A stretch of 64,000 nt of DNA from a virus (IMGVR_UViG_3300043539_002606:1-64000), one strand, 5' to 3'. Shown: positions 1,794 through 23,557, numbered from the stretch's first letter. Notes: a model not told the origin generated them from the letters alone. Translations and numbers: made by a program.

Positions 1794-3191
1794 TTATTCA
1801 ACAGTGAAATCTTTAAAGTCATTGACCTTACGTGATTTATTAGAAAATGGGCTGCTCACAACTGGATTTGAAGTTGGGCTTGCTGCATTAATTAGATTTG
1901 CAGTAGGATCTGCAATATCATAGAGCCTCATTTTTGCTCGATCAAGACCAACTGTAAATCTCTTATTTTTGGATATATCATTATAACGATTTTTAAGTTG
2001 TTTGATCATAAGCTGACCCATACTTTCAAGCTGTTCAGTGCTTAGCAATGCAAGAAATAAGTCTGCTGTAGCTGGCAAACCAAAGCTCTCACTTGTATCT
2101 GTAAGCTCCATATCACTGCTGCTTGCGCCTTGGCGATTAACTTGTGTTGCAGTCCAGATCGGCACGTTATTTTCAACAGCAAGACCACGTAATTCTTCAG
2201 CAATTGCTTTTACGAGACTATATGTGTTAACACCACCGCTTAGACCTTTGATTCTGCTGCTTGCACAAATATTCAAATAGTCAATAAAAATTACATCGGC
2301 CTTGAAATTCTTTTTAAGAGCTAGCTCGTTAATGAGTGCTCTAAAGTGTCCAGCGTGTGCGCTCGCAGTGGGATATTCCTTAATAAGAAGTTTGCCTCTT
2401 GTCTTTTTAGCAAGATCACCTATCTTACTTGAGAAGCTGCTTTCACTTAGATTTTTTAGTTGATCAATTCGAGTATCAAGCAGATTGGCATCAATACGTT
2501 CAGCGATTCTCTCCTCTGCCATTTCCATGGTAATATAGAGAACATTCAAACCCTGCGAGAGATATGAACTTGCAAAGTGACACATAACCAAACTCTTACC
2601 AACACCAGTGCCTGCCATGAGCAGGTTAAGAGTCTTGCGACCTACTCCACCGTTTGTAATGGTATTGAGCATATCAACATCAAAAGCAATCTTATCTTCT
2701 TTTTTATGATAAAAGTCATAGCGAGCAGCAGCATTGTCAATATAATCATGACCAACGTTTGTATCAAAGCAAACACTAAGTGCACTGCTTAGTAACTCAG
2801 GGATCATGCCTTCTGTTTTATTAGATCGCTTGCCATCAATAATAGCAATGCTCTCCATTACAGCATTAAAGACTGCTCGATCTTTACACCATTTTTCGGT
2901 GTTTTCGAGCAACCATTCTCTATCTGTTTCAAGTGGAGTTGCAAAGCCAGTTAGATGTTTTGCAATCTCAGAGATATGTGGACTATTGACAATATCCGCA
3001 TTCTGGCATTCAACAGCCAGACTTGTTGCATTTGGTCTATTATTATATTTTGTGATATATGCATCAATGAGTTTAAACGTTTCCTTTGATGCTCCTTCAA
3101 AATATTCTGCCTTTAAATGTGGCAGCGCAGTTCTGCAAAATTCTTCATTTGTTACGAGATTATTAAGAATGATTTCTTCAATGCTGTGCAT
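1794..3191 (-). CDS. gp41: Replicative DnaB-like helicase
   Basis: AGTGVGKS Walker A, YITMEMAEERIAERIDAN, IFIDYLNIC, SESFGLPATAD and KQLKNRY motifs; uvsX-40-41 synteny. Confidence 0.97.
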   Translation of the reverse strand: MHSIEEIILNNLVTNEEFCRTALPHLKAEYFEGASKETFKLIDAYITKYNNRPNATSLAVECQNADIVNSPHISEIAKHLTGFATPLETDREWLLENTEKWCKDRAVFNAVMESIAIIDGKRSNKTEGMIPELLSSALSVCFDTNVGHDYIDNAAARYDFYHKKEDKIAFDVDMLNTITNGGVGRKTLNLLMAGTGVGKSLVMCHFASSYLSQGLNVLYITMEMAEERIAERIDANLLDTRIDQLKNLSESSFSSKIGDLAKKTRGKLLIKEYPTASAHAGHFRALINELALKKNFKADVIFIDYLNICASSRIKGLSGGVNTYSLVKAIAEELRGLAVENNVPIWTATQVNRQGASSSDMELTDTSESFGLPATADLFLALLSTEQLESMGQLMIKQLKNRYNDISKNKRFTVGLDRAKMRLYDIADPTANLINAASPTSNPVVSSPFSNKSRKVNDFKDFTVE

Positions 3192-3459
3192 ATTTTTCAG
3201 TTAAAATGTTGTGTAGTATTTTGTTCATAATTATTTTAAAATCGTCATCTAGTTCTAGTTCAGATGTGCATTCATAGAGTTCATTGCCATTCTCGATTTT
3301 AAAACTATAGTGCAGTGTAGCACTATCTTCATTCTCAGTTACGCTTACGCTTGAGTAATAGTATTTAATGCCAGCATATTCACCAGTTAGTAATTCAATG
3401 CTAGTGTGCTTTTCATCATGAGTGCTTGGCACTAATTTATAATGTTTGTTTTCAATCAT
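3178..3459 (-). CDS. gp40: gp40-like head vertex assembly chaperone (probable start MIENK at 3459)
   Basis: Small acidic protein between uvsX and gp41, the position of T4 gene 40. The longer start at 3477 falls inside a hairpin. Confidence 0.5.
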   Translation of the reverse strand: MIENKHYKLVPSTHDEKHTSIELLTGEYAGIKYYYSSVSVTENEDSATLHYSFKIENGNELYECTSELELDDDFKIIMNKILHNILTEKYAQH

Positions 3460-3466
3460 AAAAATT

Positions 3467-3487
3467 AGGGGAGACATTGTCTCCCCT
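3467..3487. terminator. Stem-loop after uvsX (terminator or processing site)
   Basis: AGGGGAGACA-T-TGTCTCCCCT inverted repeat with A/T flanks. Confidence 0.65.
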
Positions 3488-3498
3488 TTAGGTTAAGA

Positions 3499-4536
3499 TT
3501 AATTTTCTTCTTCTTCGAAAAGGGCTACACCGCCAAGTTTATAGTTTTGTTCAATCTTGTCTTTAAAGTTAGTTTGATTAAATAGCAAATCCCAGAATTC
3601 TTTATTTTCTGTATCAGCAGCTCTTAAATTACCAGTCAATGGACTTGATGTTTCAGGATTATAAGCCATATACCAACCATTTTTTGGTTTTTGCACATAG
3701 CCAAGTTTAAGAGCTAGCTCGAGCAAGCCACTCCATTTGCTTACACCATGTTCATAGGTAACAAGCAAAGGAATTTTACTGCCTTCACGAACTGTTCGGC
3801 TCTTTTCAATCTTGATATTGAATTTGAATCCAATTAGATCTGTGCCATCCTTTTCTTGAGAACGACTAATAAACCAAATAGCATTAGCACCATAATATGC
3901 GCCTTTACCACCAGACAAAATAGTTTTGCCATACATCTTTTGCTCTTCATAGGTATGTCCAATTGCAATCATTGGAATATCTTTAAGAGTAAGATATGGT
4001 GTGATCATACGGAAAAGACCTTTAAGCGCTTTAGCGCGACTCATATCAGCAGCGCTATTCTCATTCACTGCATCATCAATTTCCTTTTTACTTGCGATAT
4101 TACCAAAGCTATCAAGAATAATAAAGACTTTTTCTTTTTTATCAATAGTTTCAAGTTGATTAACAATATCAAACTTAAGCTCTTCGATATTTTTTACTGG
4201 AATATGCAGCACTCGATTTGTATCAATGCCAAATGTTTCAAAATAGCTTTGTGGACTGCCAAACTCACTATCATAAAACATCAATACACCATCATCATTT
4301 GCTTTTAGCCATGCCGCTGCCATAAGCAAGCTTAATGTACTCTTAAAGCTTTTGCTATCACCAGCAAAAATGGTTAATCCATTTGTGATGCCTCCATCAA
4401 TCTTTCCACTTAGGCCAACATTTAGCATTGGCACGCCAACACTAATTAACTCCTTTGCTTCAAAGAATGACGAATCAGCCAACACTTCTGCCTCTTTAAC
4501 TCGGCAGTTCTTTTTTAGTTTCTCTAATAATGACAT
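3499..4536 (-). CDS. uvsX: RecA-like recombinase
   Basis: AGDSKSFKS P-loop, FYDSEFG, DSFGNIASKKE and ADMSRAKALKGLFR motifs. Confidence 0.96.
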   Translation of the reverse strand: MSLLEKLKKNCRVKEAEVLADSSFFEAKELISVGVPMLNVGLSGKIDGGITNGLTIFAGDSKSFKSTLSLLMAAAWLKANDDGVLMFYDSEFGSPQSYFETFGIDTNRVLHIPVKNIEELKFDIVNQLETIDKKEKVFIILDSFGNIASKKEIDDAVNENSAADMSRAKALKGLFRMITPYLTLKDIPMIAIGHTYEEQKMYGKTILSGGKGAYYGANAIWFISRSQEKDGTDLIGFKFNIKIEKSRTVREGSKIPLLVTYEHGVSKWSGLLELALKLGYVQKPKNGWYMAYNPETSSPLTGNLRAADTENKEFWDLLFNQTNFKDKIEQNYKLGGVALFEEEEN

Positions 4537-4542
4537 ATCTCT

Positions 4543-4571
4543 ATCTTATACTGTTTTTTCGTATTGTAAAC
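4543..4571 (-). promoter_or_regulatory. Early sigma70-type promoter for uvsX
   Basis: GTTTAC-17 nt-TAAGAT; ATG 6 nt downstream. Confidence 0.6.
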
Positions 4572-4911
4572 CTAATTTTCTATTTAAAAAGTCCCTATCA
4601 GGACTTTGACCTTGCATTTGCCCTCGCGAATATTCAACTGCAAAGCTACAATAGTTAATAGTATCTTTAAAACTATCTTCAATACTCTCAAAGTTTGGAG
4701 AGTAGTTTGGATCATGTTGCATCGCTTCAATGACACTACGAATACGCAGCATTTTAGCCCAAACAATATCAAGCAGTGTGCTTACTCCATTTGGATAATA
4801 GTCAGCTTGTTGAATGCTGCTATATGGATTCTGATAATCATTTCCCTTTTTGAGTTGTAATTCTACACACTCTCGTAATACCTTTACGCTTTCTTTTTCT
4901 TCTAGTCTCAT
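4546..4911 (-). CDS. DUF1599 / nucleotide-modification-associated domain 1 (Nmad1)-like all-alpha protein (probable start 4911)
   Basis: KKGNDY...K.LRI...SIEDSFKDTINY pattern; directly downstream of gp42. Confidence 0.7.
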   Translation of the reverse strand: MRLEEKESVKVLRECVELQLKKGNDYQNPYSSIQQADYYPNGVSTLLDIVWAKMLRIRSVIEAMQHDPNYSPNFESIEDSFKDTINYCSFAVEYSRGQMQGQSPDRDFLNRKLGLQYEKTV

Positions 4912-4912
4912 G

Positions 4913-5593
4913 TTATTTTTGTTTATAAATTTCTCCAGTTTTTGCATAGTGTTCAACAAGATAAAACTGTCTTTCGTATAGATGTAAATTACCAACTTGC
5001 CAGACTATATCTCCAGGCAAGATGCCAAGATCATCAGCTAGCGCATGTTGAACGTGACATTGCCATGCATAGTCATTGCGATAGCCAGCCCATGCATCAT
5101 TGCTTCGCATCTGCACAACTGTTTGCAAGCGACCATCGCGAATTTGATATTGTACTGTATTTGTACAAATGAAATCGCTCATGCCATCTGTATTATATTC
5201 ATAGTGCATACTTGGTCGAGTATAGATCATAACAGCGCGACGGCTATTAGGATTAGTTCTTAATTCAAGCAATACGTTTTGATATTGATTATAGTTCTTT
5301 TCGTGCCAAACCAAATAGCCATAGTTGCTGTTAATATATCCACCTTTACTTGCTACTTGTTGCCAGATCTTTGGCACATCACCCGGAATATCATCTACTC
5401 TTAGACTTTGAGAGAGATACCATGCCAGTTCGCGTGTGACATAATCTTCGTTGACTTCACCGAAAATACTTGGCTCATCAGCAATAAAACTAGCGCCCAA
5501 TATTTCGATTGTTTTGCAACCAGTCTTATCAGTTGTAAACTGTCCTGAATTATAGGCAGTTAAAAAATTATTTCTTATATCTGTTATCAACAT
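4913..5593 (-). CDS. gp42: dCMP hydroxymethylase (thymidylate synthase family); probable start 5593
   Basis: Long blocks match T4 gp42 as recalled: DKTG.KTIEI.GASF.ADEP.IFG, PKIWQQVAS, INSNYG, IYTRPSM, DGMSDF.CTNTVQY, MRSND...G.RNDYAWQ. It has Asp (dCMP-specific) rather than the Asn of thymidylate synthase. Confidence 0.92.
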   Translation of the reverse strand: MLITDIRNNFLTAYNSGQFTTDKTGCKTIEILGASFIADEPSIFGEVNEDYVTRELAWYLSQSLRVDDIPGDVPKIWQQVASKGGYINSNYGYLVWHEKNYNQYQNVLLELRTNPNSRRAVMIYTRPSMHYEYNTDGMSDFICTNTVQYQIRDGRLQTVVQMRSNDAWAGYRNDYAWQCHVQHALADDLGILPGDIVWQVGNLHLYERQFYLVEHYAKTGEIYKQK

Positions 5594-5597
5594 AGAT

Positions 5598-6011
5598 TTA
5601 TACATAACGGTTAATTGTTGCACGATTATCAAGCAACATGATCATATAACGGCGATCAAATTCTTGGATCTTTTCAATTGCTGCGCACAAATTTTGTTCA
5701 TCAATTTTGCCGTGAATATATTCCAATTCAGTTTCAATAAGCCAATTGACCATAAGCTCACGATCGTTATTTAGATATTCGATAAATTCTTCAAAATCTA
5801 TACGAGTTTGATCAGTTGGCCAAATATAATCACCAGCTAAAGTTTCTGTTATATGCTTATAGAAAGTTTCACCTGCTTTAAACAAATGACATCTAATGTC
5901 ATCGTTTTCTGCGACAATGAGACAATCAATTGCATTTGACAATTCATGGCTTGTTGTTTGCATATCTTTTGTTTTTATCATATTGTTATGGAATGTATTA
6001 TAGTCTATCAT
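5598..6011 (-). CDS. Hypothetical protein (true start probably 5981 or later, downstream of the promoter)
   Basis: Fills the gap between gp42 and the primase-like gene; no recognisable motif. Confidence 0.6.
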   Translation of the reverse strand: MIDYNTFHNNMIKTKDMQTTSHELSNAIDCLIVAENDDIRCHLFKAGETFYKHITETLAGDYIWPTDQTRIDFEEFIEYLNNDRELMVNWLIETELEYIHGKIDEQNLCAAIEKIQEFDRRYMIMLLDNRATINRYV

Positions 6012-6030
6012 GTTTTTTGTATTTTGTAAA
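6002..6030 (-). promoter_or_regulatory. Early promoter driving hypothetical-gp42-Nmad1
   Basis: TTTACA-17 nt-TAGACT with extended -10 TGn. Confidence 0.6.
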
Positions 6031-6038
6031 TCATAAAA

Positions 6039-6983
6039 TCATATTAAAACGCTTTCAATTGCCCAATTAAGAGCTCTTTGGCTTTCAGTATGCAAATCTC
6101 GGCTTTTATACCAGCCTCCAGTATCGGCGTCAAGTTGTTTAGCAATCATTTCAAGATCATATGCACTTATATCAAAGCCTCGTTTGAGGGCATTTGCGGC
6201 TGTTGAGCAGAGTATAAGATACATCTTATGATACCAACCACTCGTAGTTAGTGCTCGATATTCTGCAACTGCTTTTTTATTAACAAACGGACAATCAACA
6301 TAGCTGCTCCATTTAGCATTGCGATTTAAACGCTGACGCTGATAATCAAGCAACTTTTGTTTAATCTCATCACTTAGTTGTGCCTTAAAGCTTGTGCTCT
6401 TGAAACTATTGTCATTATACTCAACACTTGCGAGAAGTTCATCAACTTTAATAGGCTCTCCGTTAAAACTATGGAAAAAACTATATGCTTGTGGATATTG
6501 TGCAGGCACATAATACATGCGACTAAGATCTTTAGTTTGTGGATCTCCTAGTTCATTATATCTCTTATTAAGCGCATACCAAAAATGTTTGATTTCACCA
6601 GCTGCGATATCTCGATCGCATGCTAAGACTATTCTAAACTTAGCATGTTCAGCACGACTGCTTGAGCTGTTATAAACCACACACTGACAATCCTTAAAGG
6701 TATCAATAACGCTTTGAGCATCACCATTATAGTCATCAATATCGAGTGCAGCCCAACCAGCCCAGCATTCAACATTGGCATTTGCTCGTGTTGAATCTCG
6801 TTTATAAACAGCTGGACTAATTAGTGGACTGCCCTGTCGTCTTTCATCGCGTTTGGGTTTATAGCCAGGCTGAGTGTATAGATTATGCAAACATTCAACA
6901 AACTGTTCCCAGTTTTCAAACTCACCATGTCGATGAGTCTTGTTATCAAAAATTGATTTGAATATTGTAAAACCTATTTTCAT
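6039..6983 (-). CDS. Archaeo-eukaryotic primase (AEP/PrimPol)-like protein with a helical C-terminal domain
   Basis: hhhDhD motif WAALDIDD, VYNSSSS...KFRIVL, and DPQTKDLSRMYYVP. Confidence 0.7.
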   Translation of the reverse strand: MKIGFTIFKSIFDNKTHRHGEFENWEQFVECLHNLYTQPGYKPKRDERRQGSPLISPAVYKRDSTRANANVECWAGWAALDIDDYNGDAQSVIDTFKDCQCVVYNSSSSRAEHAKFRIVLACDRDIAAGEIKHFWYALNKRYNELGDPQTKDLSRMYYVPAQYPQAYSFFHSFNGEPIKVDELLASVEYNDNSFKSTSFKAQLSDEIKQKLLDYQRQRLNRNAKWSSYVDCPFVNKKAVAEYRALTTSGWYHKMYLILCSTAANALKRGFDISAYDLEMIAKQLDADTGGWYKSRDLHTESQRALNWAIESVLI

Positions 6984-7387
6984 ACAAGTTCAGAAAAACG
7001 GCCATGATTGCCGCTATGATTTGGTGGTTGCCAGCCTTCTGGCTTAATTAAGTCTGGAAGACCAAAGGCATTTGGTCGACTTGCTTTTACGCCAACCTCT
7101 TTATTCATATTTGCAGCAAGTACTTCATTCCATGCTGCATGACTATCAACACCAAAAAGATCAAGTGTGCCGATCGCGACAACACAAAGATCAATCAATG
7201 CATCAACTGTTTCTTCAGAATCACGACGCGTAATTGCTTCTTGCAATTCAGCTAGCTCTTCTGCTAGAAAGCTTACTCTAAATTTAATAAACTCATGTAG
7301 CAGCTCTGGCGAAAGAGTCGCCATTTTAGCTTTTACATTATAATGCTCATGCATCTTTTCAATATCTTCTACCCAGTTTTGTGACAT
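6980..7387 (-). CDS. MazG/PRA-PH-like all-alpha NTP pyrophosphohydrolase (candidate dCTPase/dUTPase)
   Basis: EELAEL...ETVDALIDL acidic motif, ANMNK, and DLIKPEGWQPP C-terminus. Confidence 0.8.
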   Translation of the reverse strand: MSQNWVEDIEKMHEHYNVKAKMATLSPELLHEFIKFRVSFLAEELAELQEAITRRDSEETVDALIDLCVVAIGTLDLFGVDSHAAWNEVLAANMNKEVGVKASRPNAFGLPDLIKPEGWQPPNHSGNHGRFSELV

Positions 7388-7409: not shown

Positions 7410-9932
7410 TTATGCGAAAAAGTCTTCGAGGCTTGAACGCTCCTCTGCGCTCCAGCCAATTGCATCAAGAATTAGTTGTATTGGCTCAAGAAACGCCTTT
7501 TGAAATTGCATATCAAAGTCAATATAACTTTCAATCTTAAATTCAATTGGCAGTTTACCAACAAATGCTATGCAATTTTCTCGTGTTGGATTTTGTGGTC
7601 GCAAGAATATGTATTTAATCTTTTCTCCGTTTTTAATCTTTGGCACATTTTTGCAATTCACTTCATCAAGCAACCAGTTATGCATAAGACATCCACGCAC
7701 ATGCAGCGGTGTGCCCTTTGTATAGATGGTTTTGCGATCAGCATATTTGCGAACATTAGTAACACCACGCGGCAATCCAATTTGTTCAGGAGTCATGCTT
7801 TCAAACTCACGTCTAAATTTAGCAATTGCATCTTGTGTTTGTTTTTGATTGCCGCTAATAATAACAGAGAATAGATTTTTCATAGCTTCACGACAAACCT
7901 TTGGCGTACTGCTTTTTACTGCTTCAATGCCTTTCATTTTAATTTTAGGCTTTGCATATTGTACGCCTTCACTGTTATGCACATTCAGAATATATCTTTT
8001 CTTTGCAGTCCAGATTGCGCGATCAGCAATAACTTCTCGCTTCATATTCATAGTATTTTTATATGCTTGAGTCATATCAGCGAGAGTTTTAAATGTTTTT
8101 TGAAAAAGAGGCTCAAGTGCCTTGGAACCAAACTCATCAAGAAATGCTACTGGATTTTTAGGTGAGAATTGATTAACTACGTCTTCAACATTCAAATAGA
8201 TGCTATCAGTGTCCATTGCAATAACATAGTCTTTAGACTTTGTGTTTTTCAAAAAGCTATTGAGATATGTATTGATTGCATACTCAGCTTTGTTAATAAC
8301 AAGCTGGCCAGTAAGTGTAATGCCTTCTGCAATAAGAATATCAAAATAGCGGAAATATTTGTTTGCAATAGCACCGTAAAGACTATTCATCAAAATCTTG
8401 ATACACATCTGCTCGGTATCAAGACGAGAGATTTCAGATACGAGAGCTGGAGACTTTGAGATTTCATAGTCTTGCTGTTTGCCTAACATCTCCTTTTTAA
8501 TAATCACTCGGCGATTATAAAGCTCTTCAACAATCGCTGGCAAAAAGCCTTGTTTATCTCGACGAAATGTTGCACCATTTGCGGCAACAGCAAGATTATC
8601 TTCTAAGCCATCAATTTTAGATAGAGTCAATAGCTTATCAGGACCTAATCCACTAATCACGCTATGTCGTACGAGCATTTCTGGACTCATGTTATATTGA
8701 ATAATGATATTAGGATATAGACTATTCAAGTCGAAGCTTAGCACCCAATTATACATGCCAGGTTTTGGATCCTTAACATATCCACCAGCATAGTCTTGTG
8801 CAAAGCTAGCTCTGTTATTTGGTGGTACAGCAATTTTTTTATTTGCAAGATAGCGAAAGATAATGCTATCCCAGATACCAACAGTGCCGAGCGTGTCGGC
8901 ATAGTTAACACCGCCAAAATAGGCAAGTGTAAAAACAAGATTAAGTAGACCAAGCTTTTGCTCAAAGCGTTCAATAAGTTCAACGTCAACAACGTTATAT
9001 TCAACATATGTTTGATAGTCTGTTTCATAGAGATTTTTTAGACTGCCACTATAATCAACCTTATTTTCGCCAAGCACAACTTCAGCGATATGATCAAGCT
9101 TATAACTTTCTTGTTGACCATATGTGTTGAGAGTAAATTTCTTAAAGAGCTCAAGATAGTCGAGCTGTTGTATGCCTACGATATTATAACCATATTGCTC
9201 TTGACCTTTGACAGTGACATTACGCTCTTCAATTTGTTTCCATGGACTAAGCTTAAGAACTTCTCCTTCATCAAGCAAAAGACTGCAGCGATTAACAAGA
9301 TATGGTATATCGAAAAAGTTTGTGTTCCAGCCAGTAATAACATCAGGCGTATTATCAGGATCACTCCACCAATCAATAAAGTCTTGAAGCATATCAGACT
9401 CTTTGATAAACTCGCGATATTCAATTTTCAAATGGCGAAGCTTGCTAATTGACATGTCATATTCTTTAAGACCCCAAACAATATAAACATCTTGTCGACT
9501 ACTCTTAACAGTAATTGTTAGCACACGATTGCTTGCCATGCGTGCTTCACTATAGCTTCCTTCTTCATCGCAGTCAACCTCAATATCGATATACGCAATA
9601 TCAATAAAACGCTTGACATAGTCAATCCTATCTGGAAATTGACTTTGAATAAACGCAGGAATCCAACGATCATTGCCATAGATCTTAAAACCAGAAATGC
9701 CTTCATATTGTTTTGTAAAAGCTCGGGCTTCGCTCATGCTATCAAATCGAACTGGCTCCAGAGCTTTGTCATCAAGACTGCGCCAACCACTTTTTGGATC
9801 CTTTGATTCAACATATAGACATGGCTTATATCGAAAGCTTTCATAGAGTTTTTTACCGCTCGCATCATAGCCTCGATATTTAATGCTATTCATGTGGCGA
9901 TCCACGTTTGTATAAAAACCAGTTAATGTCAT
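7410..9932 (-). CDS. gp43: Family B DNA polymerase
   Basis: Exonuclease motifs DIEVD, GWNTNFFDIPY and YNVVDV; polymerase motifs SFDLNSLYP, KILMNSLYG, DTDS and KKRY. Confidence 0.98.
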   Translation of the reverse strand: MTLTGFYTNVDRHMNSIKYRGYDASGKKLYESFRYKPCLYVESKDPKSGWRSLDDKALEPVRFDSMSEARAFTKQYEGISGFKIYGNDRWIPAFIQSQFPDRIDYVKRFIDIAYIDIEVDCDEEGSYSEARMASNRVLTITVKSSRQDVYIVWGLKEYDMSISKLRHLKIEYREFIKESDMLQDFIDWWSDPDNTPDVITGWNTNFFDIPYLVNRCSLLLDEGEVLKLSPWKQIEERNVTVKGQEQYGYNIVGIQQLDYLELFKKFTLNTYGQQESYKLDHIAEVVLGENKVDYSGSLKNLYETDYQTYVEYNVVDVELIERFEQKLGLLNLVFTLAYFGGVNYADTLGTVGIWDSIIFRYLANKKIAVPPNNRASFAQDYAGGYVKDPKPGMYNWVLSFDLNSLYPNIIIQYNMSPEMLVRHSVISGLGPDKLLTLSKIDGLEDNLAVAANGATFRRDKQGFLPAIVEELYNRRVIIKKEMLGKQQDYEISKSPALVSEISRLDTEQMCIKILMNSLYGAIANKYFRYFDILIAEGITLTGQLVINKAEYAINTYLNSFLKNTKSKDYVIAMDTDSIYLNVEDVVNQFSPKNPVAFLDEFGSKALEPLFQKTFKTLADMTQAYKNTMNMKREVIADRAIWTAKKRYILNVHNSEGVQYAKPKIKMKGIEAVKSSTPKVCREAMKNLFSVIISGNQKQTQDAIAKFRREFESMTPEQIGLPRGVTNVRKYADRKTIYTKGTPLHVRGCLMHNWLLDEVNCKNVPKIKNGEKIKYIFLRPQNPTRENCIAFVGKLPIEFKIESYIDFDMQFQKAFLEPIQLILDAIGWSAEERSSLEDFFA

Positions 9933-9969: not shown

Positions 9970-9997
9970 AAAAAAGCACTGCTTAAGCAGTGCTTTT
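9970..9997. terminator. Palindromic, probably bidirectional terminator
   Basis: Perfect palindrome AAAAGCACTGCTTAAGCAGTGCTTTT at 9972-9997. Confidence 0.75.
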
Positions 9998-21725: not shown

Positions 21726-21747
21726 AATTATTTTTATGAATTTTTTG

Positions 21748-21776
21748 GTTTACAAACAATCAGATTCATGTATAAT
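21748..21776 (+). promoter_or_regulatory. Antisense-oriented sigma70-type promoter, copy 1
   Basis: GTTTAC-17 nt-TATAAT, divergent from the gp55 promoter. Confidence 0.75.
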
Positions 21777-21815
21777 AGGTGCCATGCACCTTCGGCTGAA
21801 TGTAATGAAGCCGAT
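21768..21815 (+). repeat. 48-bp exact repeat, copy 1 (-10 box plus two hairpins)
   Basis: ATGTATAATAGGTGCCATGCACCTTCGGCTGAATGTAATGAAGCCGAT, identical to 35162-35209. Confidence 0.95.
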
Positions 21816-21879
21816 AGATGTTGCTGATTGTTTGCTCTTAAAATATCTATAATGATATTATAATCTCATAAGAGCATGA

Positions 21880-22893
21880 TTATTCTTTAATCTTTCGAAA
21901 GCCAAGTAAGGTATGTTTTACTGCCATCCACATGTCTAGATACTTATAGTTGCTTAATCTGCCTGTAAACATTACATTCTTTTCTTCGGCTTTAAGCTTT
22001 TCATATTGGGAGTATTGACGCTGTGCATCTCCCCATGGTATTGGATAATAAGGTATATCATTCTCTCTTGCCTCTTTTGGCAATTCGCTTGTAATGACAG
22101 TCAAGCCTTTATGATCTGGGTTAAAATAGCTATGATCATAGATTCTTGTATATGGCACATCAGCTCTATTTTGATTGACAATAAATGTTTCTTGTTTTGG
22201 AACAAATGCCTTATGATGAAATTCCAAACTACGATATGGCAATCGTCCATAGCAATAGTCATAATATTCATCAATTTTTCCAGTATAGACCAATAGATCT
22301 CGAGGAGCAGATTTCCATGCATCACCATCGGAGTTTATATGCACAGTTATATTCTCATGATCAAGCATGCTGGCAAACATAGCGCTATAGCCATGCTTTG
22401 GCAAGCACTGATATTTTTGATGTCGAAACCATGTTGGATTTTCATCATCTGCTGTTTGAGGTATGCGATTTGTAATGGTTTGTGGGATTTCTTCAAATGG
22501 CACACCCCATTGTTTTTCGCTATATTCCTTAAAGAAATATTCTCGAATCTCCTCTGGCTCAAGTTCTCGACCCAGTGCTGCAACTGTTGCCCGTGAATAT
22601 GGCAATGGCACAACTCCCAATCGAGTATCTCCTAATGGTCTTAATTCAAATGGAATCCATTCAGTGAATCGACTCAAAAATTCAAAAACCTCTTCATCAT
22701 CAGTATGAAAAATATGAGGACCATAGGTGTGTACTCTTACGTGACCCATTAACTGATCTGCACAATTGCCTCCAATATGATCACGTGATTCATATATTGT
22801 TACGTTCGCGCCAGCATCAGCAAAGCATCGAGCAGCTGTGCAGCCACTTAGGCCTGCTCCAACCACTACTATATTTTTATTAACATATTCCAT
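21880..22893 (-). CDS. glf: UDP-galactopyranose mutase (FAD-dependent pyranose-to-furanose mutase)
   Basis: VVGAGLSG, IGGNC, HTYGPHIFHT, YSEKQWG, YTGKID, LPYRSL, YTRI, PYYP and GRLSNYKYLDM motifs. Confidence 0.93.
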   Translation of the reverse strand: MEYVNKNIVVVGAGLSGCTAARCFADAGANVTIYESRDHIGGNCADQLMGHVRVHTYGPHIFHTDDEEVFEFLSRFTEWIPFELRPLGDTRLGVVPLPYSRATVAALGRELEPEEIREYFFKEYSEKQWGVPFEEIPQTITNRIPQTADDENPTWFRHQKYQCLPKHGYSAMFASMLDHENITVHINSDGDAWKSAPRDLLVYTGKIDEYYDYCYGRLPYRSLEFHHKAFVPKQETFIVNQNRADVPYTRIYDHSYFNPDHKGLTVITSELPKEARENDIPYYPIPWGDAQRQYSQYEKLKAEEKNVMFTGRLSNYKYLDMWMAVKHTLLGFRKIKE

Positions 22894-23557
22894 TGTCTTT
22901 TGCATATCTATAGACTAATTCTTCTTGATATTTTGTATCTGTATATGTTGCAATAATTTCATCGAGATTCTCATGAAATGCCTTTGCTATTTTCTTCATA
23001 TTCTGAAGATCACCACAATAAAAATTATCAACACCAATTACTGATCTGCTTAATCTTGGATGTCTAAAGACGAACTCTCTGGTAAAAATTAATTTATTGC
23101 ATATTGACATATTTGCTTGACATATTGGTCGGGTGAAATAGTCCCAACGTGTATTAATGATTCTAAAATAATCATCTGGTATTTTCTCTAATCCGCTGTG
23201 TATGCCAGCCCACATATTTTTCCAACTTATTTTTGGTATTTTACTTTGACAAATTTGACCATCAATCGTTTGATGTAGTTTTAATTTGCTATCATCAAGA
23301 ATCGTGATATTTTTAATAATATCCTTATGCTCAATAAAATAGTGTTCAATAAGATTTGGAGTAACAATCAATTTTGCACTATTATTGACTTCGCGATAGC
23401 TGCTATCAGCTTCAGCATATTTCCAACTTTGACAATAGACGTGTAAATCAACATCGCGTTTGCTTCTTAAATTTTGTACAAATTCCTTTAGACTTGGACT
23501 AAATAAGCCATCACGAATATGTCCTCGAATATAAAGGGCTATTTTGTGTTTGTTCAT
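22880..23557 (-). CDS. Hypothetical protein overlapping glf and uvsW; possibly a nucleotide-sugar-dependent transferase
   Basis: IALYIRGHIR start, INTRWD and GVDNFY motifs. The function is inferred from context only. Confidence 0.6.
   Translation of the reverse strand: MNKHKIALYIRGHIRDGLFSPSLKEFVQNLRSKRDVDLHVYCQSWKYAEADSSYREVNNSAKLIVTPNLIEHYFIEHKDIIKNITILDDSKLKLHQTIDGQICQSKIPKISWKNMWAGIHSGLEKIPDDYFRIINTRWDYFTRPICQANMSICNKLIFTREFVFRHPRLSRSVIGVDNFYCGDLQNMKKIAKAFHENLDEIIATYTDTKYQEELVYRYAKDNGIC

What the first reader, a model, noticed from the sequence alone, without database searches (positions are those of the whole stretch)
4546..7387. Coliphage-T4-type cytosine hydroxymethylation block inside a cyanomyophage-type genome
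Seen: between gp43 and uvsX lie a MazG-like pyrophosphatase, an AEP-like protein, an unknown gene, a gp42 with long blocks matching T4 dCMP hydroxymethylase (catalytic Cys in FICTN, dCMP-specifying Asp in RNDY) and a DUF1599/Nmad1-like gene. Known: T4 has gene 42 at this same position followed by beta-glucosyltransferase. Here Nmad1 occupies that slot, and nothing separates gp55 from gp47, where T4 has alpha-gt. The rest of the gene order (23-3-uvsY-uvsW-55-47-46-cobS-45-44-62-regA-43) is Kyanoviridae-like, a group I do not recall typically carrying gp42. Inference: the genome contains hmC with a non-T4 decoration step, and the two all-alpha proteins may replace gp56 in removing dCTP.
Basis: partly seen in the sequence, partly recalled or inferred. 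Interest (0 to 1): 0.75.

Follow-up and report, generated by a model that had tools for sequence, protein, structure and literature searches.

The report
T4-type hydroxymethylcytosine module, non-T4 accessories
An uncultured T4-like water phage with a cyanophage-type backbone carries a genuine T4-type enzyme for making hydroxymethylcytosine, served by a different dCTP-removing enzyme and a small partner protein, and this module proves to be common in environmental phages rather than a one-off.

Summary
On the minus strand, between DNA polymerase gp43 and UvsX, lie five genes:
- a MazG/PRA-PH-type pyrophosphatase
- an AEP-type primase
- a lineage-specific ORFan
- a dCMP hydroxymethylase
- an Nmad1/DUF1599 protein

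The hydroxymethylase is 59% identical to T4 gp42 and matches it at all 16 active-site positions checked. It keeps the Asp that separates 5hm-dCMP synthases from the RB69-type 5-hydroxy-dCMP synthases.

- **MazG-like protein:** it is the likely gp56 substitute. A 99%-complete relative has it and lacks gp56; Serratia phage Muldoon has the reverse.
- **Nmad1:** it does not stand in for beta-gt. It follows gp42 in 56 of 59 environmental loci and is fused to the MazG-like domain in the 5mC phage Xp12.
- **AEP gene:** it replaces the gp61 primase and is not part of the pathway.
- **Glucosyltransferases:** no T4 alpha-gt or beta-gt is present in the 46%-complete contig.

Two decoration candidates remain:
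- a four-gene cluster at the contig tail, which in relatives sits directly after gp42-cd
- a strain-variable UDP-galactopyranose mutase cassette

The module is widespread: at least 566 IMG/VR Nmad1 relatives were found. It is partly anticipated by Yang et al. 2021, and this scan has noted it before on other DNA.

The parts
9972..9997 (-). Terminator-like hairpin (11-bp stem plus T run) upstream of gp43; the upstream boundary of the gp43-to-uvsX transcription unit
   Evidence: terminator-like sites number 12 against 4.4 expected
7410..9932 (-). gp43 family-B DNA polymerase (context; first gene of the unit)
   Evidence: phrog_262 E 3.9e-291; 46.6% identity to phage C48C1; 28.5% to T4 gp43
6980..7387 (-). 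MazG/PRA-PH-type all-alpha dNTP pyrophosphatase, 135 aa; predicted dCTP/dUTP pyrophosphatase and functional analogue of T4 gp56
   Evidence: PF01503 E 2e-10. The family profile hits the Deinococcus DR2231 MazG-like dUTPase at E 1e-7. E43, E44, E47, D62 and D66 are invariant. Present in 53 of 59 Nmad1 loci. No BLASTP similarity to gp56.
6039..6983 (-). AEP-type primase-like protein, 314 aa; start overlaps the MazG-like stop (ATGA). Replication backbone gene, not part of the modification pathway
   Evidence: phrog_9765 E 1.4e-41. Homologues at 42-44% identity in the same slot in C48C1, L015, L018 and L021. gp61 is absent where AEP is present and present where it is absent.
5598..6011 (-). Acidic ORFan, 137 aa (pI 4.6), function unknown; found only in the closest relatives
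   Evidence: No Pfam or PHROG match; ESM Atlas gave nothing. Homologues only in L004, L005 and L022, at 69-95% identity. pI.
4913..5605 (-). gp42, T4-type dCMP hydroxymethylase (5hm-dCMP synthase), 230 aa
   Evidence: PDB 1b49 E 6e-87. 59% identity to T4 gp42, 26% to RB69 gp48, 22% to Xp12 gp59. Identical to T4 at 16 of 16 active-site positions, including C148, D145, D171 and D179.
4546..4911 (-). Nmad1/DUF1599 protein, 121 aa, four-helix; conserved partner of gp42 and of the MazG-like pyrophosphatase
   Evidence: PF07659 24.3 bits (cut-off 25), with 12 of 15 relatives matching. AF2 pLDDT 90. gp42 lies beside it in 56 of 59 loci. Fused to the MazG-like domain in Xp12 gp60.
3499..4536 (-). uvsX recombinase (context; last gene of the unit)
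3467..3487 (-). Terminator-like hairpin (9-bp stem, 6 GC pairs) just after uvsX; the downstream boundary of the unit
21880..22905 (-). UDP-galactopyranose mutase; candidate donor-sugar enzyme for a furanosyl decoration. Strain-variable
   Evidence: PF03275 E 3.7e-57. Window 21853-23551 is missing from the 91-93%-identical relative G004. UGM homologues lie after gp42-cd in 4 loci, and also in C48C1, which lacks gp42.
22880..23557 (-). Unknown 225-aa partner of the mutase in the same insertion/deletion cassette
   Evidence: No family match; deleted together with UGM in G004

Best explanation
The interval belongs to one tightly packed transcription unit, gp43 to uvsX, of an uncultured T4-like phage with a Kyanoviridae-type backbone. 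The unit carries a pre-replicative cytosine-replacement module.

Proposed pathway:
1. The MazG/PRA-PH-type pyrophosphatase hydrolyses dCTP, and probably dUTP, to the monophosphate. This keeps C out of the DNA and feeds dCMP to the next enzyme. It is an analogue of T4 gp56, not an orthologue.
2. gp42 hydroxymethylates dCMP with methylene-tetrahydrofolate to give 5hm-dCMP.
3. Kinases that remain unidentified raise 5hm-dCMP to the triphosphate.
4. gp43 then builds hmC DNA.

Nmad1 is a four-helix protein that most likely works as a partner or subunit of the pyrophosphatase, or couples it to gp42. It is not a decoration enzyme. The AEP-like gene is the primase of this phage clade, and the 137-aa ORFan has no assigned role.

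The hmC is probably decorated further, but not with T4-type glucose. The leading candidate is a four-gene cluster at 79.1-83.6 kb of the contig: F383, t334, t331 (GDSH motif) and a PLP enzyme. A UGM cassette near gp55 is a second, strain-variable candidate.

Shown here: gene identities, active-site residues, synteny and fusions. Inferred: substrate of the pyrophosphatase, role of Nmad1, full replacement of C, and any decoration.
For: **gp42**
- E 6e-87 to the T4 dCMP hydroxymethylase structures.
- 59% identity to T4 gp42, with identity at 16 of 16 active-site positions.
- These include Asp at the ThyA-N177 position (dCMP specificity), Asp at the L143 position (hydroxymethyl rather than methyl product), and Asp rather than Asn at the D169 position. 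The D169N change is the marker of 5ho-dCMP synthases (PMC13326640).

**Module conservation**
- Among the first 21 IMG/VR loci found with gp42, a MazG-like gene was detected in 18 and Nmad1 in 19.
- Of 59 Nmad1 loci with enough flanking sequence, 56 have gp42 (41 of these within 200 bp), 53 have the MazG-like gene, and 50 have both.

**Rosetta-stone fusion**
- Xp12 gp60 is a MazG-like domain (hhalign probability 98.9%) joined to Nmad1 (97.8%), directly upstream of the Xp12 TS homologue.

**Complementary distribution**
- G001 (99% complete): MazG-like and Nmad1 present, gp56 absent.
- Muldoon: gp56 and Nmad1 present, MazG-like absent.
- C48C1: none of gp42, MazG-like or Nmad1.

**Superfamily**
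- The MazG-like profile hits the DR2231 dUTPase at E 1e-7.
- gp56 itself falls in the same all-alpha superfamily: PF08761, plus a weak PF01503 match.

**Published experiment**
- PRA-PH, TS and dCMP-deaminase domains are enriched and co-occur on cytosine-modified environmental phage contigs (PMC8670742).

**Operon structure**
- Overlapping or abutting genes, bracketed by two terminator-like hairpins.

**Decoration**
- The tail-cluster genes are 64-73% identical to, and colinear with, genes lying directly after gp42-cd in L021, L018 and L015.
- In 33 of 53 F383 loci, gp42 lies 0.4-1.8 kb upstream. Seven of 7 large contigs with F383 (G000, G001, G005-G009) carry a T4-type gp42.
- t331 and F383 are fused in seven protein clusters.
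Against: - No enzyme was assayed and no DNA was analysed.
- No gp1-type or Tmk-type dNMP kinase was found in the contig, or in the 99%-complete relative G001. The 5hm-dCMP phosphorylation step is therefore unexplained.
- The MazG-like protein has no detectable sequence similarity to gp56, and its substrate is inferred only.
- The resemblance of Nmad1 to NTP pyrophosphatases is weak: VIA-align Z 5.5-6.8, Foldseek E >= 0.5, hhalign against the MazG-like profile 0.9%.
- T4 itself makes hmC without Nmad1.
- The contig is only 46% complete, so the absence of glucosyltransferases, gp56 or a kinase is not proven.
- The F383 cluster is not next to gp42 in this genome, and its families match no Pfam, PHROG or PDB sequence.
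- UGM is absent from a near-identical relative and present in a phage that lacks gp42.
Confidence: 0.72

Rival explanations
1. The DNA carries plain, undecorated hmC. The tail cluster and the UGM cassette serve other purposes, such as host or virion glycans or metabolism.
For: - No recognisable DNA glycosyltransferase in 83.6 kb.
- The UGM cassette is missing from a 91-93%-identical relative, and a UGM is present in C48C1, which lacks gp42.
- The F383 cluster is not adjacent to gp42 in this genome.
Against: - The slot after gp42-cd in relatives always holds modification-type genes: the F383 cluster in 40 of 79 loci, alpha-gt in 7, UGM sets in 4 and beta-gt in 1.
- All 7 large contigs with F383 carry a T4-type gp42.
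Confidence: 0.15
2. The TS homologue is an RB69-type 5-hydroxy-dCMP synthase. The phage would then make glycosylated 5-hydroxycytosine with galactofuranose, as proposed for Rhizobium phage RL38J1.
For: - A UGM gene is present.
- RL38J1 combines a 5hoC synthase with a UGM (PMC13326640).
- MazG-like homologues occur in Agrobacterium and Rhizobium phages of about 150 kb.
Against: - Only 26% identity to RB69 gp48, against 59% to T4 gp42.
- Asp, not Asn, at the diagnostic ThyA-D169 position.
- Five further active-site positions follow T4 rather than RB69.
Confidence: 0.03
3. The TS homologue is an Xp12-type dCMP methyltransferase and the DNA carries 5-methylcytosine.
For: The MazG-like and Nmad1 pair is the split form of Xp12 gp60, which sits next to the Xp12 dCMP-modifying TS homologue.
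Against: - 22% identity to Xp12 gp59.
- The water-admitting Asp145 is kept; Xp12 has Asn there.
- Positions 149, 167 and 170 follow T4, not Xp12.
Confidence: 0.03
4. The enzyme acts on dUMP, giving hmU DNA. The AADT-like and PLP cluster would then be an ordinary thymidine-hypermodification system.
For: - The ESM Atlas places F383 near clusters named amino acid:DNA transferase or carrying HMUDK_hel.
- A PLP enzyme is present, as in phages ViI and M6 (PMC8989533).
Against: - Asp179 specifies cytosine.
- All 135 close homologues aligned keep this Asp and, with two single-position exceptions, the rest of the T4 signature.
- No 5-HMUDK-type kinase was recognised.
- The published cytosine-modified contigs carry the same TS, PRA-PH and cd set.
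Confidence: 0.03
5. The MazG-like gene is the usual cyanophage MazG auxiliary gene, acting on the nucleotide pool or on starvation signalling, and lies beside gp42 only by chance.
For: - MazG is common in cyanomyophages.
- A cyanophage MazG hydrolyses dNTPs (title and abstract of PMC6850273).
Against: - It matches PF01503, not the classical MazG family.
- tblastn found it in 143 phage records. No cyanophage genus appears among the ten commonest names listed, which are Xp12-like, Rhizobium/Agrobacterium, Achromobacter and Microbacterium phages, among others.
- It lies within a few kb of gp42 in 50 of 59 loci and is fused to Nmad1 in Xp12.
Confidence: 0.04

Closest known systems
Phage T4 hydroxymethylcytosine pathway (gp56 dCTPase, gp42 dCMP hydroxymethylase, gp1 dNMP kinase, alpha- and beta-glucosyltransferases)
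   Same: gp42 is a clear member of the same enzyme family: 59% identity, identical active site, and the same position between gp43 and uvsX. The logic of removing dCTP and supplying dCMP is retained.
   Different: - gp56 is replaced by an unrelated-in-sequence PRA-PH/MazG-type enzyme.
- An Nmad1 partner is added.
- No gp1, alpha-gt or beta-gt homologue was found in the contig. gp1 and gp56 are also missing from a 99%-complete relative.
- The backbone is Kyanoviridae-like.
Xanthomonas phage Xp12 5-methylcytosine cassette (gp60 MazG-Nmad1 fusion, gp59 TS homologue, dCMP deaminase, DHFR)
   Same: The same two accessory domains sit directly beside a dCMP-modifying TS homologue. The window has them as two separate genes.
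   Different: The Xp12 TS homologue is only 22% identical, has methylase-type residues and yields 5mC. Xp12 is a siphovirus, and its two domains are fused.
Cytosine-modified environmental phage contigs of Yang et al. 2021 (eLife, PMC8670742): TS, PRA-PH and dCMP deaminase, with or without hmC carbamoyltransferase
   Same: The same Pfam combination (PF00303 with PF01503, and with PF00383 in relatives) was shown experimentally to mark contigs whose cytosines are modified. Decorating enzymes vary in the position after the TS gene.
   Different: No carbamoyltransferase is present here. DUF1599 was not found in that paper's main text or in its stored, partly truncated supplements.
Serratia phages Muldoon, PS2 and SP1, and Cronobacter phage VP8 (cultured T4-like phages)
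   Same: An Nmad1 homologue (59% identity) lies immediately upstream of gp42, between gp43 and uvsX.
   Different: These phages keep gp56 and T4-type beta-gt and beta-glucosyl-HMC-alpha-glucosyltransferase, and they lack the MazG-like gene.
Thymidine hypermodification pathways of phages M6, ViI, PaMx11 and PhiW-14 (dUMP hydroxymethylase, 5-HMUDK, AADT, PLP decarboxylase; PMC8989533)
   Same: The candidate decoration cluster includes a fold-type-II-like PLP enzyme. Its helical F383 protein has as nearest language-model neighbours clusters named amino acid:DNA transferase or carrying HMUDK_hel.
   Different: The base is cytosine, not uracil. No DNA kinase was recognised. F383, t334 and t331 match no Pfam model of that pathway.
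RB69, DLP3 and RL38J1 glycosylated 5-hydroxycytosine systems (PMC13326640)
   Same: A TS homologue lies between gp43 and uvsX with sugar-nucleotide genes nearby. RL38J1 also encodes a UGM.
   Different: The window's enzyme lacks the D169N signature and is only 26% identical to RB69 gp48.

Membership tests
T4-type dCMP hydroxymethylase (5hm-dCMP synthase, gp42) | Thymidylate-synthase fold with the catalytic Cys (T4 C148) | tested here: met
   PF00303 E 1e-22; PDB 1b49 E 6e-87; Cys aligned
T4-type dCMP hydroxymethylase (5hm-dCMP synthase, gp42) | Asp at the ThyA-N177 position (T4 D179), giving dCMP rather than dUMP specificity | tested here: met
   RNDYAWQ motif, D aligned with T4 D179; criterion taken from PMC13326640
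T4-type dCMP hydroxymethylase (5hm-dCMP synthase, gp42) | Acidic residue at the ThyA-L143 position (T4 D145), which admits water and gives a hydroxymethyl rather than a methyl product | tested here: met
   D in the window and in T4; N in Xp12 gp59
T4-type dCMP hydroxymethylase (5hm-dCMP synthase, gp42) | Asp kept at the ThyA-D169 position (T4 D171); Asn here marks 5ho-dCMP synthases | tested here: met
   D in the window and in all 135 aligned homologues; N in RB69 gp48 (PMC13326640)
T4-type dCMP hydroxymethylase (5hm-dCMP synthase, gp42) | Folate-dependent conversion of dCMP to 5hm-dCMP | not testable with these tools
   Needs an enzyme assay, or expression followed by LC-MS
All-alpha NTP pyrophosphohydrolase superfamily (MazG / HisE-PRA-PH / dimeric dUTPase) | Family HMM match above the curated cut-off, with the acidic metal-binding motif | tested here: met
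   PF01503 41.3 bits against 21.3; invariant E43, E44, E47, D62 and D66; DR2231 at E 1e-7
T4 gp56 dCTPase/dUTPase (orthology) | Detectable sequence homology to gp56 | tested here: not met
   BLASTP finds no alignment. tblastn with gp56 finds nothing in the contig or in G001-G003, while the same search hits Muldoon at 3e-73.
T4 gp56 dCTPase/dUTPase (function) | Hydrolysis of dCTP and dUTP but not of hm-dCTP | not testable with these tools
   Inferred from superfamily membership, synteny and the complementary distribution with gp56
Nmad1 / DUF1599 (PF07659) | Pfam model match at or above the gathering score | tested here: inconclusive
   The window protein scores 24.3 bits against a cut-off of 25 (E 4e-5). 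Twelve of 15 aligned relatives match at E <= 0.01, the best at 3e-7.
Nmad1 / DUF1599 (PF07659) | Gene-neighbourhood association with nucleotide-modifying TS homologues | tested here: met
   56 of 59 loci; also Muldoon and Xp12
All-alpha NTP pyrophosphohydrolase fold, for Nmad1 | Structural similarity of the Nmad1 model to MazG, DCTPP1 or PRA-PH structures | tested here: inconclusive
   VIA-align: AF1178 pyrophosphatase Z 6.8 (rmsd 4.5, 82 aligned), RS21-C6 Z 5.9, MazG-related 2yxh Z 5.9. All lie within the noise range for helical bundles. Foldseek best E 0.5.
T4-type DNA glucosylation (alpha-gt, beta-gt) | Presence of an alpha-gt or beta-gt homologue | tested here: not met
   tblastn with T4 alpha-gt, T4 beta-gt and the Muldoon GTs finds nothing in 83.6 kb. 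PF09198 gives no match in G000, while the Muldoon control scores 5e-95. The contig is only 46% complete.
Thymidine-type hypermodification machinery (5-HMUDK, AADT, PLP) acting on hmC | Recognisable AADT (aGPT-Pplase) and DNA kinase domains | tested here: inconclusive
   No Pfam hit for F383 or for 10 distant relatives. ESM Atlas neighbours are named AADT or HMUDK_hel, scores 0.90-0.97. VIA-align against the PaMx11 gp46 glycinyltransferase gives Z 5.1 on a low-confidence model.
AEP-type primase | Profile match to phage primase families, plus absence of the alternative DnaG-type primase | tested here: met
   phrog_9765 E 1.4e-41. gp61 is absent from G001 and C48C1, which carry AEP, and present in G002 and G003, whose fetched gp42-region loci show no AEP.

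The most novel reading that the evidence does not exclude
This phage, together with a large group of uncultured aquatic T4-like phages, replaces C with hmC by a gp56-free and gp1-free route built on a MazG-like/Nmad1 pyrophosphatase pair. It then converts hmC in DNA into a chemically undescribed base. The conversion would use a kinase-less cassette (F383 helical transferase-like protein, t334, a GDSH-motif protein with a possible beta-gt-like acceptor domain, and a PLP enzyme). In some strains a galactofuranose branch would be added.
Probability: 0.4. Interest if true: 0.8.

Novelty: new variant of a known kind. Interest (0 to 1): 0.55.

Why it matters
The classic T4 recipe for cytosine replacement turns out to be one version of a modular system. 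The hydroxymethylase is strongly conserved: 59% identity between backbones whose DNA polymerases share only 28%. The dCTPase, the kinase step and the decoration are interchangeable.

- **Testable roles.** The MazG-like/Nmad1 pair is split here and fused in the 5mC phage Xp12. That gives a testable function to a domain family (DUF1599) that has had only a contextual name.
- **Ecological reach.** The module occurs in hundreds of environmental phage contigs. Modified cytosine may therefore be common in aquatic T4-like phages, which matters for restriction and CRISPR evasion and for biases in virome sequencing.
- **Decoration chemistry.** The slot after gp42-cd lists candidate hmC-decorating chemistries, of which only glucosylation and carbamoylation have been characterised.

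Tried and rejected
- **Nucleotide search.** Megablast of the region against 50,697 phage records found no match.
- The 172-kb JGI contig that encodes an 84%-identical gp42 (P0013) therefore could not be inspected.
- **Accessory proteins against gp56.** BLASTP of the MazG-like protein and of Nmad1 against T4 gp56, and against each other, gave nothing. hhalign of the Nmad1 profile against the MazG-like profile gave probability 0.9%.
- **Nmad1 structure.** The profile found no PDB sequence relative, and Foldseek gave nothing at E <= 0.001.
- **The 137-aa ORFan.** No Pfam, PHROG or ESM Atlas lead.
- **Literature.** Iyer et al. 2013, which named Nmad1, is not in the library. Text searches for Nmad1 or DUF1599 returned nothing relevant.
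- **Promoters.** The sigma-70 scan was no better than shuffled sequence, 27 against 27, so no promoter is claimed.
- **F383, t334, t331 and PLP families.**
  - No PDB sequence hits.
  - No Pfam hits, including for distant relatives and fusions.
  - No PHROG hit for F383 or t334; t331 matches phrog_13881 and the PLP enzyme matches phrog_7093.
  - The AF2 model of F383 was poor, pLDDT 57.6.
  - F383/t334 paralogy was not supported by hhalign.
  - t331 against T4 beta-gt: hhalign probability 2.5%; PF09198 gave only a sub-threshold hit in the G005 homologue and none in the window's own genome.
- **Kinases.** No gp1-type or Tmk-type kinase in G000 or G001.
- **gp42 tree.** It is informative only weakly. 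The clade containing the window is well supported (0.998), but deeper nodes have 0.81-0.85 support, and sampling was biased towards the window's best hits. I therefore make no claim about horizontal transfer of gp42.

Full report
**What is there.**

The window is the first 64 kb of an 83.6-kb IMG/VR viral contig that is about 46% complete. Almost all genes are on the minus strand. Between gp43 (7410-9932) and uvsX (3499-4536) lie five genes:

| Gene | Coordinates | Size | Evidence |
|---|---|---|---|
| MazG-like | 6980-7387 | 135 aa | PF01503 PRA-PH, E 2e-10, above cut-off |
| AEP-like | 6039-6983 | 314 aa | phrog_9765 'DNA primase', E 1.4e-41 |
| unknown | 5598-6011 | 137 aa | acidic, no family |
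| TS homologue (gp42) | 4913-5605 | 230 aa | see next section |
| DUF1599/Nmad1 | 4546-4911 | 121 aa | PF07659, 24.3 bits against cut-off 25 |

The genes overlap or abut. MazG-like and AEP share an ATGA overlap. The ORFan and gp42 overlap by 8 nt. One nucleotide separates gp42 from Nmad1. The whole gp43-to-uvsX block is bracketed by two strong terminator-like hairpins, at 9997-9972 and 3487-3467. It therefore reads as one transcription unit. The promoter scan was no better than chance, so I claim no promoter.

**The TS homologue is a T4-type 5hm-dCMP synthase.**

It matches the T4 dCMP hydroxymethylase crystal structures at E 6e-87, while ordinary thymidylate synthases score around 1e-10. Lee et al. 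(NAR 2026, PMC13326640) showed that the 'gp42-like' enzymes of RB69, DLP3 and RL38J1 make 5-hydroxy-dCMP instead. They are marked by Asn at the ThyA-D169 position.

In my alignment, identity to the window protein and active-site agreement are as follows:

| Protein | Identity to window | Active-site positions |
|---|---|---|
| T4 gp42 | 59% | identical at all 16 examined |
| RB69 gp48 (5ho-dCMP synthase) | 26% | differs at six |
| Xp12 gp59 (dCMP methylase) | 22% | differs at four, including the L143-equivalent |

The 16 positions are E60, Y96, R123, R124, D145, C148, T149, M167, R168, S169, N170, D171, G175, D179, H216 and Y218. The 135 close homologues aligned keep the T4 signature, apart from two sequences that each deviate at one position: a gap at E60 in one and Gly for N170 in the other.

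The rivals (5hoC, 5mC, hmU) are therefore each unlikely.

**The backbone.**

Identities to the window's replication proteins:

| Protein | Phage C48C1 (Kyanoviridae) | T4 |
|---|---|---|
| gp43 | 46.6% (cyanophages 44-45%) | 28.5% |
| uvsX | 55% | 46% |
| gp41 | 54% | 43% |
| regA | 61% | 48% |

Against T4, gp42 at 58-59% is the best-conserved shared protein by a wide margin. C48C1 is a complete genome and has no gp42, no MazG-like gene and no Nmad1.

**The block is a widespread module.**

- gp42 has 7,435 database relatives at E <= 1e-20. A tight metagenomic clade sits at 78-99% identity.
- In the first 21 IMG/VR loci, a MazG-like gene was found in 18 and Nmad1 in 19. Most of the exceptions are loci cut off next to gp42.
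- A profile scan for Nmad1 found at least 566 IMG/VR relatives. Of the 59 best loci with enough flank, 56 carry gp42 (41 of these within 200 bp), 53 carry the MazG-like gene and 50 carry both.
- Yang et al. (eLife 2021, PMC8670742) showed experimentally that TS, PRA-PH and dCMP-deaminase domains are enriched and co-occur on environmental phage contigs whose cytosines are modified. This is independent support that the module makes modified cytosine. It also limits the novelty.
- This scan has recorded similar modules on other genomes. Those are unchecked notes and I treat them as leads only.

**Role of the MazG-like protein.**

- It belongs to the all-alpha NTP pyrophosphatase superfamily, with invariant E43, E44, E47, D62 and D66.
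- Its family profile hits the Deinococcus MazG-like dUTPase DR2231 at E 1e-7.
- T4 gp56 lies in the same superfamily (PF08761, weak PF01503), but shows no pairwise similarity to it.
- The distribution is complementary. The 99%-complete relative G001 has the MazG-like gene and no gp56. Serratia phage Muldoon has gp56 (67% identical to T4's) and no MazG-like gene.
- It is not the classical cyanophage MazG. tblastn finds it in Xp12-like, Rhizobium/Agrobacterium, Achromobacter and Microbacterium phages and in Pelagibacter phage Kolga, often beside a TS gene. No cyanophage genus appears among the ten commonest names listed.

I infer a dCTP/dUTP pyrophosphatase that stands in for gp56. The substrate itself is not shown.

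**Role of Nmad1.**

- It is not a beta-gt substitute. In Muldoon, PS2, SP1 and Cronobacter phage VP8, a 59%-identical Nmad1 sits directly upstream of gp42. Muldoon, the one inspected in detail, also carries gp56 and true T4-type glucosyltransferases.
- In Xp12, the classic 5mC phage, gp60 is a fusion of the MazG-like domain (hhalign 98.9%, E 1.6e-17) and Nmad1 (97.8%, E 1.3e-12). It lies immediately upstream of the TS homologue, dCMP deaminase and DHFR.
- The AF2 model is confident (pLDDT 90) and shows four helices.
- Conserved residues include a basic pair (K53, R56) and an acidic cluster (E62, E75, E78, D79, D83).
- Structure searches put all-alpha NTP pyrophosphatases at the top: AF1178 at Z 6.8, RS21-C6/DCTPP1 at Z 5.9 and a MazG-related protein at Z 5.9. 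These values lie within the noise for helical bundles.

My reading is that Nmad1 is a partner or subunit of the pyrophosphatase, or a coupler to the TS-like enzyme. This is an inference resting on the fusion and the synteny. T4 manages without it, so it is not essential to the chemistry.

**AEP gene and the ORFan.**

AEP homologues at 42-44% identity sit in the same slot in C48C1, L015, L018 and L021. The T4-type primase gp61 is absent from C48C1 and from G001, and present in G002 and G003, whose fetched gp42-region loci show no AEP. The AEP gene is therefore the clade's primase and not part of the modification pathway. The 137-aa ORFan occurs only in the closest relatives and stays unexplained.

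**Decoration.**

- No homologue of T4 alpha-gt or beta-gt, of the Muldoon GTs, of the RB69 arabinose genes, of dCMP deaminase or of a C5-methylase is present in the 83.6 kb.
- In relatives, the position after gp42-cd, where T4 has beta-gt, is a variable decoration slot. Among the 79 Nmad1 loci it holds T4-type alpha-gt in 7 and beta-gt in 1. In 4 it holds a set made of an unknown 340-374-aa protein followed by UGM, flanked in three of them by a sugar epimerase. In 40 it holds a cluster led by a 383-aa helical protein, F383.
- The window's genome carries the F383 cluster at the contig tail, at genome coordinates 79,140-83,606, beyond the window. The order there is F383 (cut by the contig end), t334, a 201-aa ORF, t331 (GDSH motif) and a PLP enzyme (phrog_7093).
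- These genes are 64-73% identical to, and colinear with, the genes directly after gp42-cd in L021, L018 and L015.
- F383 has at least 372 IMG/VR relatives. In 33 of 53 loci, gp42 lies 0.4-1.8 kb upstream. All seven large contigs with F383 carry a T4-type gp42.
- t331-like and F383-like domains are fused in seven protein clusters.
- What the cluster does is open. Pfam and PDB sequence searches are silent for all four families. PHROGs places only t331 (phrog_13881, unknown function) and the PLP enzyme (phrog_7093).
- The ESM Atlas puts F383 next to clusters named amino acid:DNA transferase or carrying HMUDK_hel.
- A low-confidence model gives weak matches to HhH glycosylases and to the PaMx11 glycinyltransferase.
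- t331 relatives show sub-threshold similarity to the T4 beta-gt N-terminal domain, which hhalign does not confirm.

**The UGM cassette.**

Window 21853-23551 holds UGM (PF03275, E 3.7e-57) and an unknown 225-aa ORF. This stretch is an insertion/deletion relative to G004, which is 91-93% identical here. A 40%-identical UGM is also present in C48C1, which lacks gp42. Against that, UGM does occur in the gp42 decoration slot of four loci. I rate it a second, weaker decoration candidate.

**Open gap.**

No gp1-type or Tmk-type kinase is found in the contig or in the 99%-complete relative. How 5hm-dCMP is phosphorylated is unexplained.

**Verdict.**

The hmC module is a new variant of a known kind: the T4 enzyme with a different dCTPase, an added partner and different decoration genes. 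It is widespread and partly anticipated in print.

Noticed in passing
window 6039-6983; loci L002, L015, L018, L021: An AEP-type primase gene sits between gp43 and uvsX in a clade of Kyanoviridae-like phages. The complete or near-complete genomes that carry it (C48C1, G001) lack the T4 gp61 DnaG-type primase. Relatives without it in the fetched loci (G002, G003) have gp61. This looks like a non-orthologous primase replacement.
   Followed up: partly
genome 79140-83606 (beyond the window; L003:15540-20000): A four-gene cluster (F383 cut by the contig end, t334, the GDSH-motif protein t331 and a PLP enzyme) is colinear with genes that lie directly after gp42-cd in many relatives. t331-like and F383-like domains are fused in seven protein clusters of 639-790 aa.
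   Followed up: partly
window 21853-23551: The UGM plus 225-aa ORF cassette is precisely absent from relative G004, which is 91-93% identical in this region. About 100 bp at window 21726-21828, beside the cassette, also matches a second site in G004 (83% identity), which suggests a repeated element at the cassette border.
   Followed up: partly
L021:6245-7723: The 99%-complete relative G001 encodes a 492-aa flavin-dependent tryptophan-halogenase-family protein (PF04820, E 1.5e-91) between gp43 and the MazG-like gene.
   Followed up: no
L013:12503-13702; L136:10891-12090; L178:10451-11638: C5-cytosine DNA methyltransferase genes lie within the gp42 decoration slot of several relatives. That is odd if all cytosines are replaced by hmC.
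   Followed up: no
L197:7440-11541: One relative has, after gp42-cd, a T4 beta-gt homologue (31% identity), a SAM methyltransferase and a 593-aa CofD-like (2-phospho-L-lactate transferase family) protein.
   Followed up: no
L005:6848-9558: In a relative whose gp41 is about 90% identical, the helicase gene matches in two pieces separated by about 1.3 kb. This suggests an intein, an intron or a homing-endonuclease insertion.
   Followed up: no
window 3178-3477: The 99-aa ORF after uvsX has a weak, sub-threshold Pfam match to the phi29 UDG inhibitor p56 (PF20763, E 0.002, 18.2 bits against cut-off 24.1).
   Followed up: no
G002:C1:53506-54150; G009:C1:159100-159801: The gp42 matches in two large relatives contain one in-frame stop each (TAA and TGA). 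This may be a sequencing error, a pseudogene or recoding.
   Followed up: no
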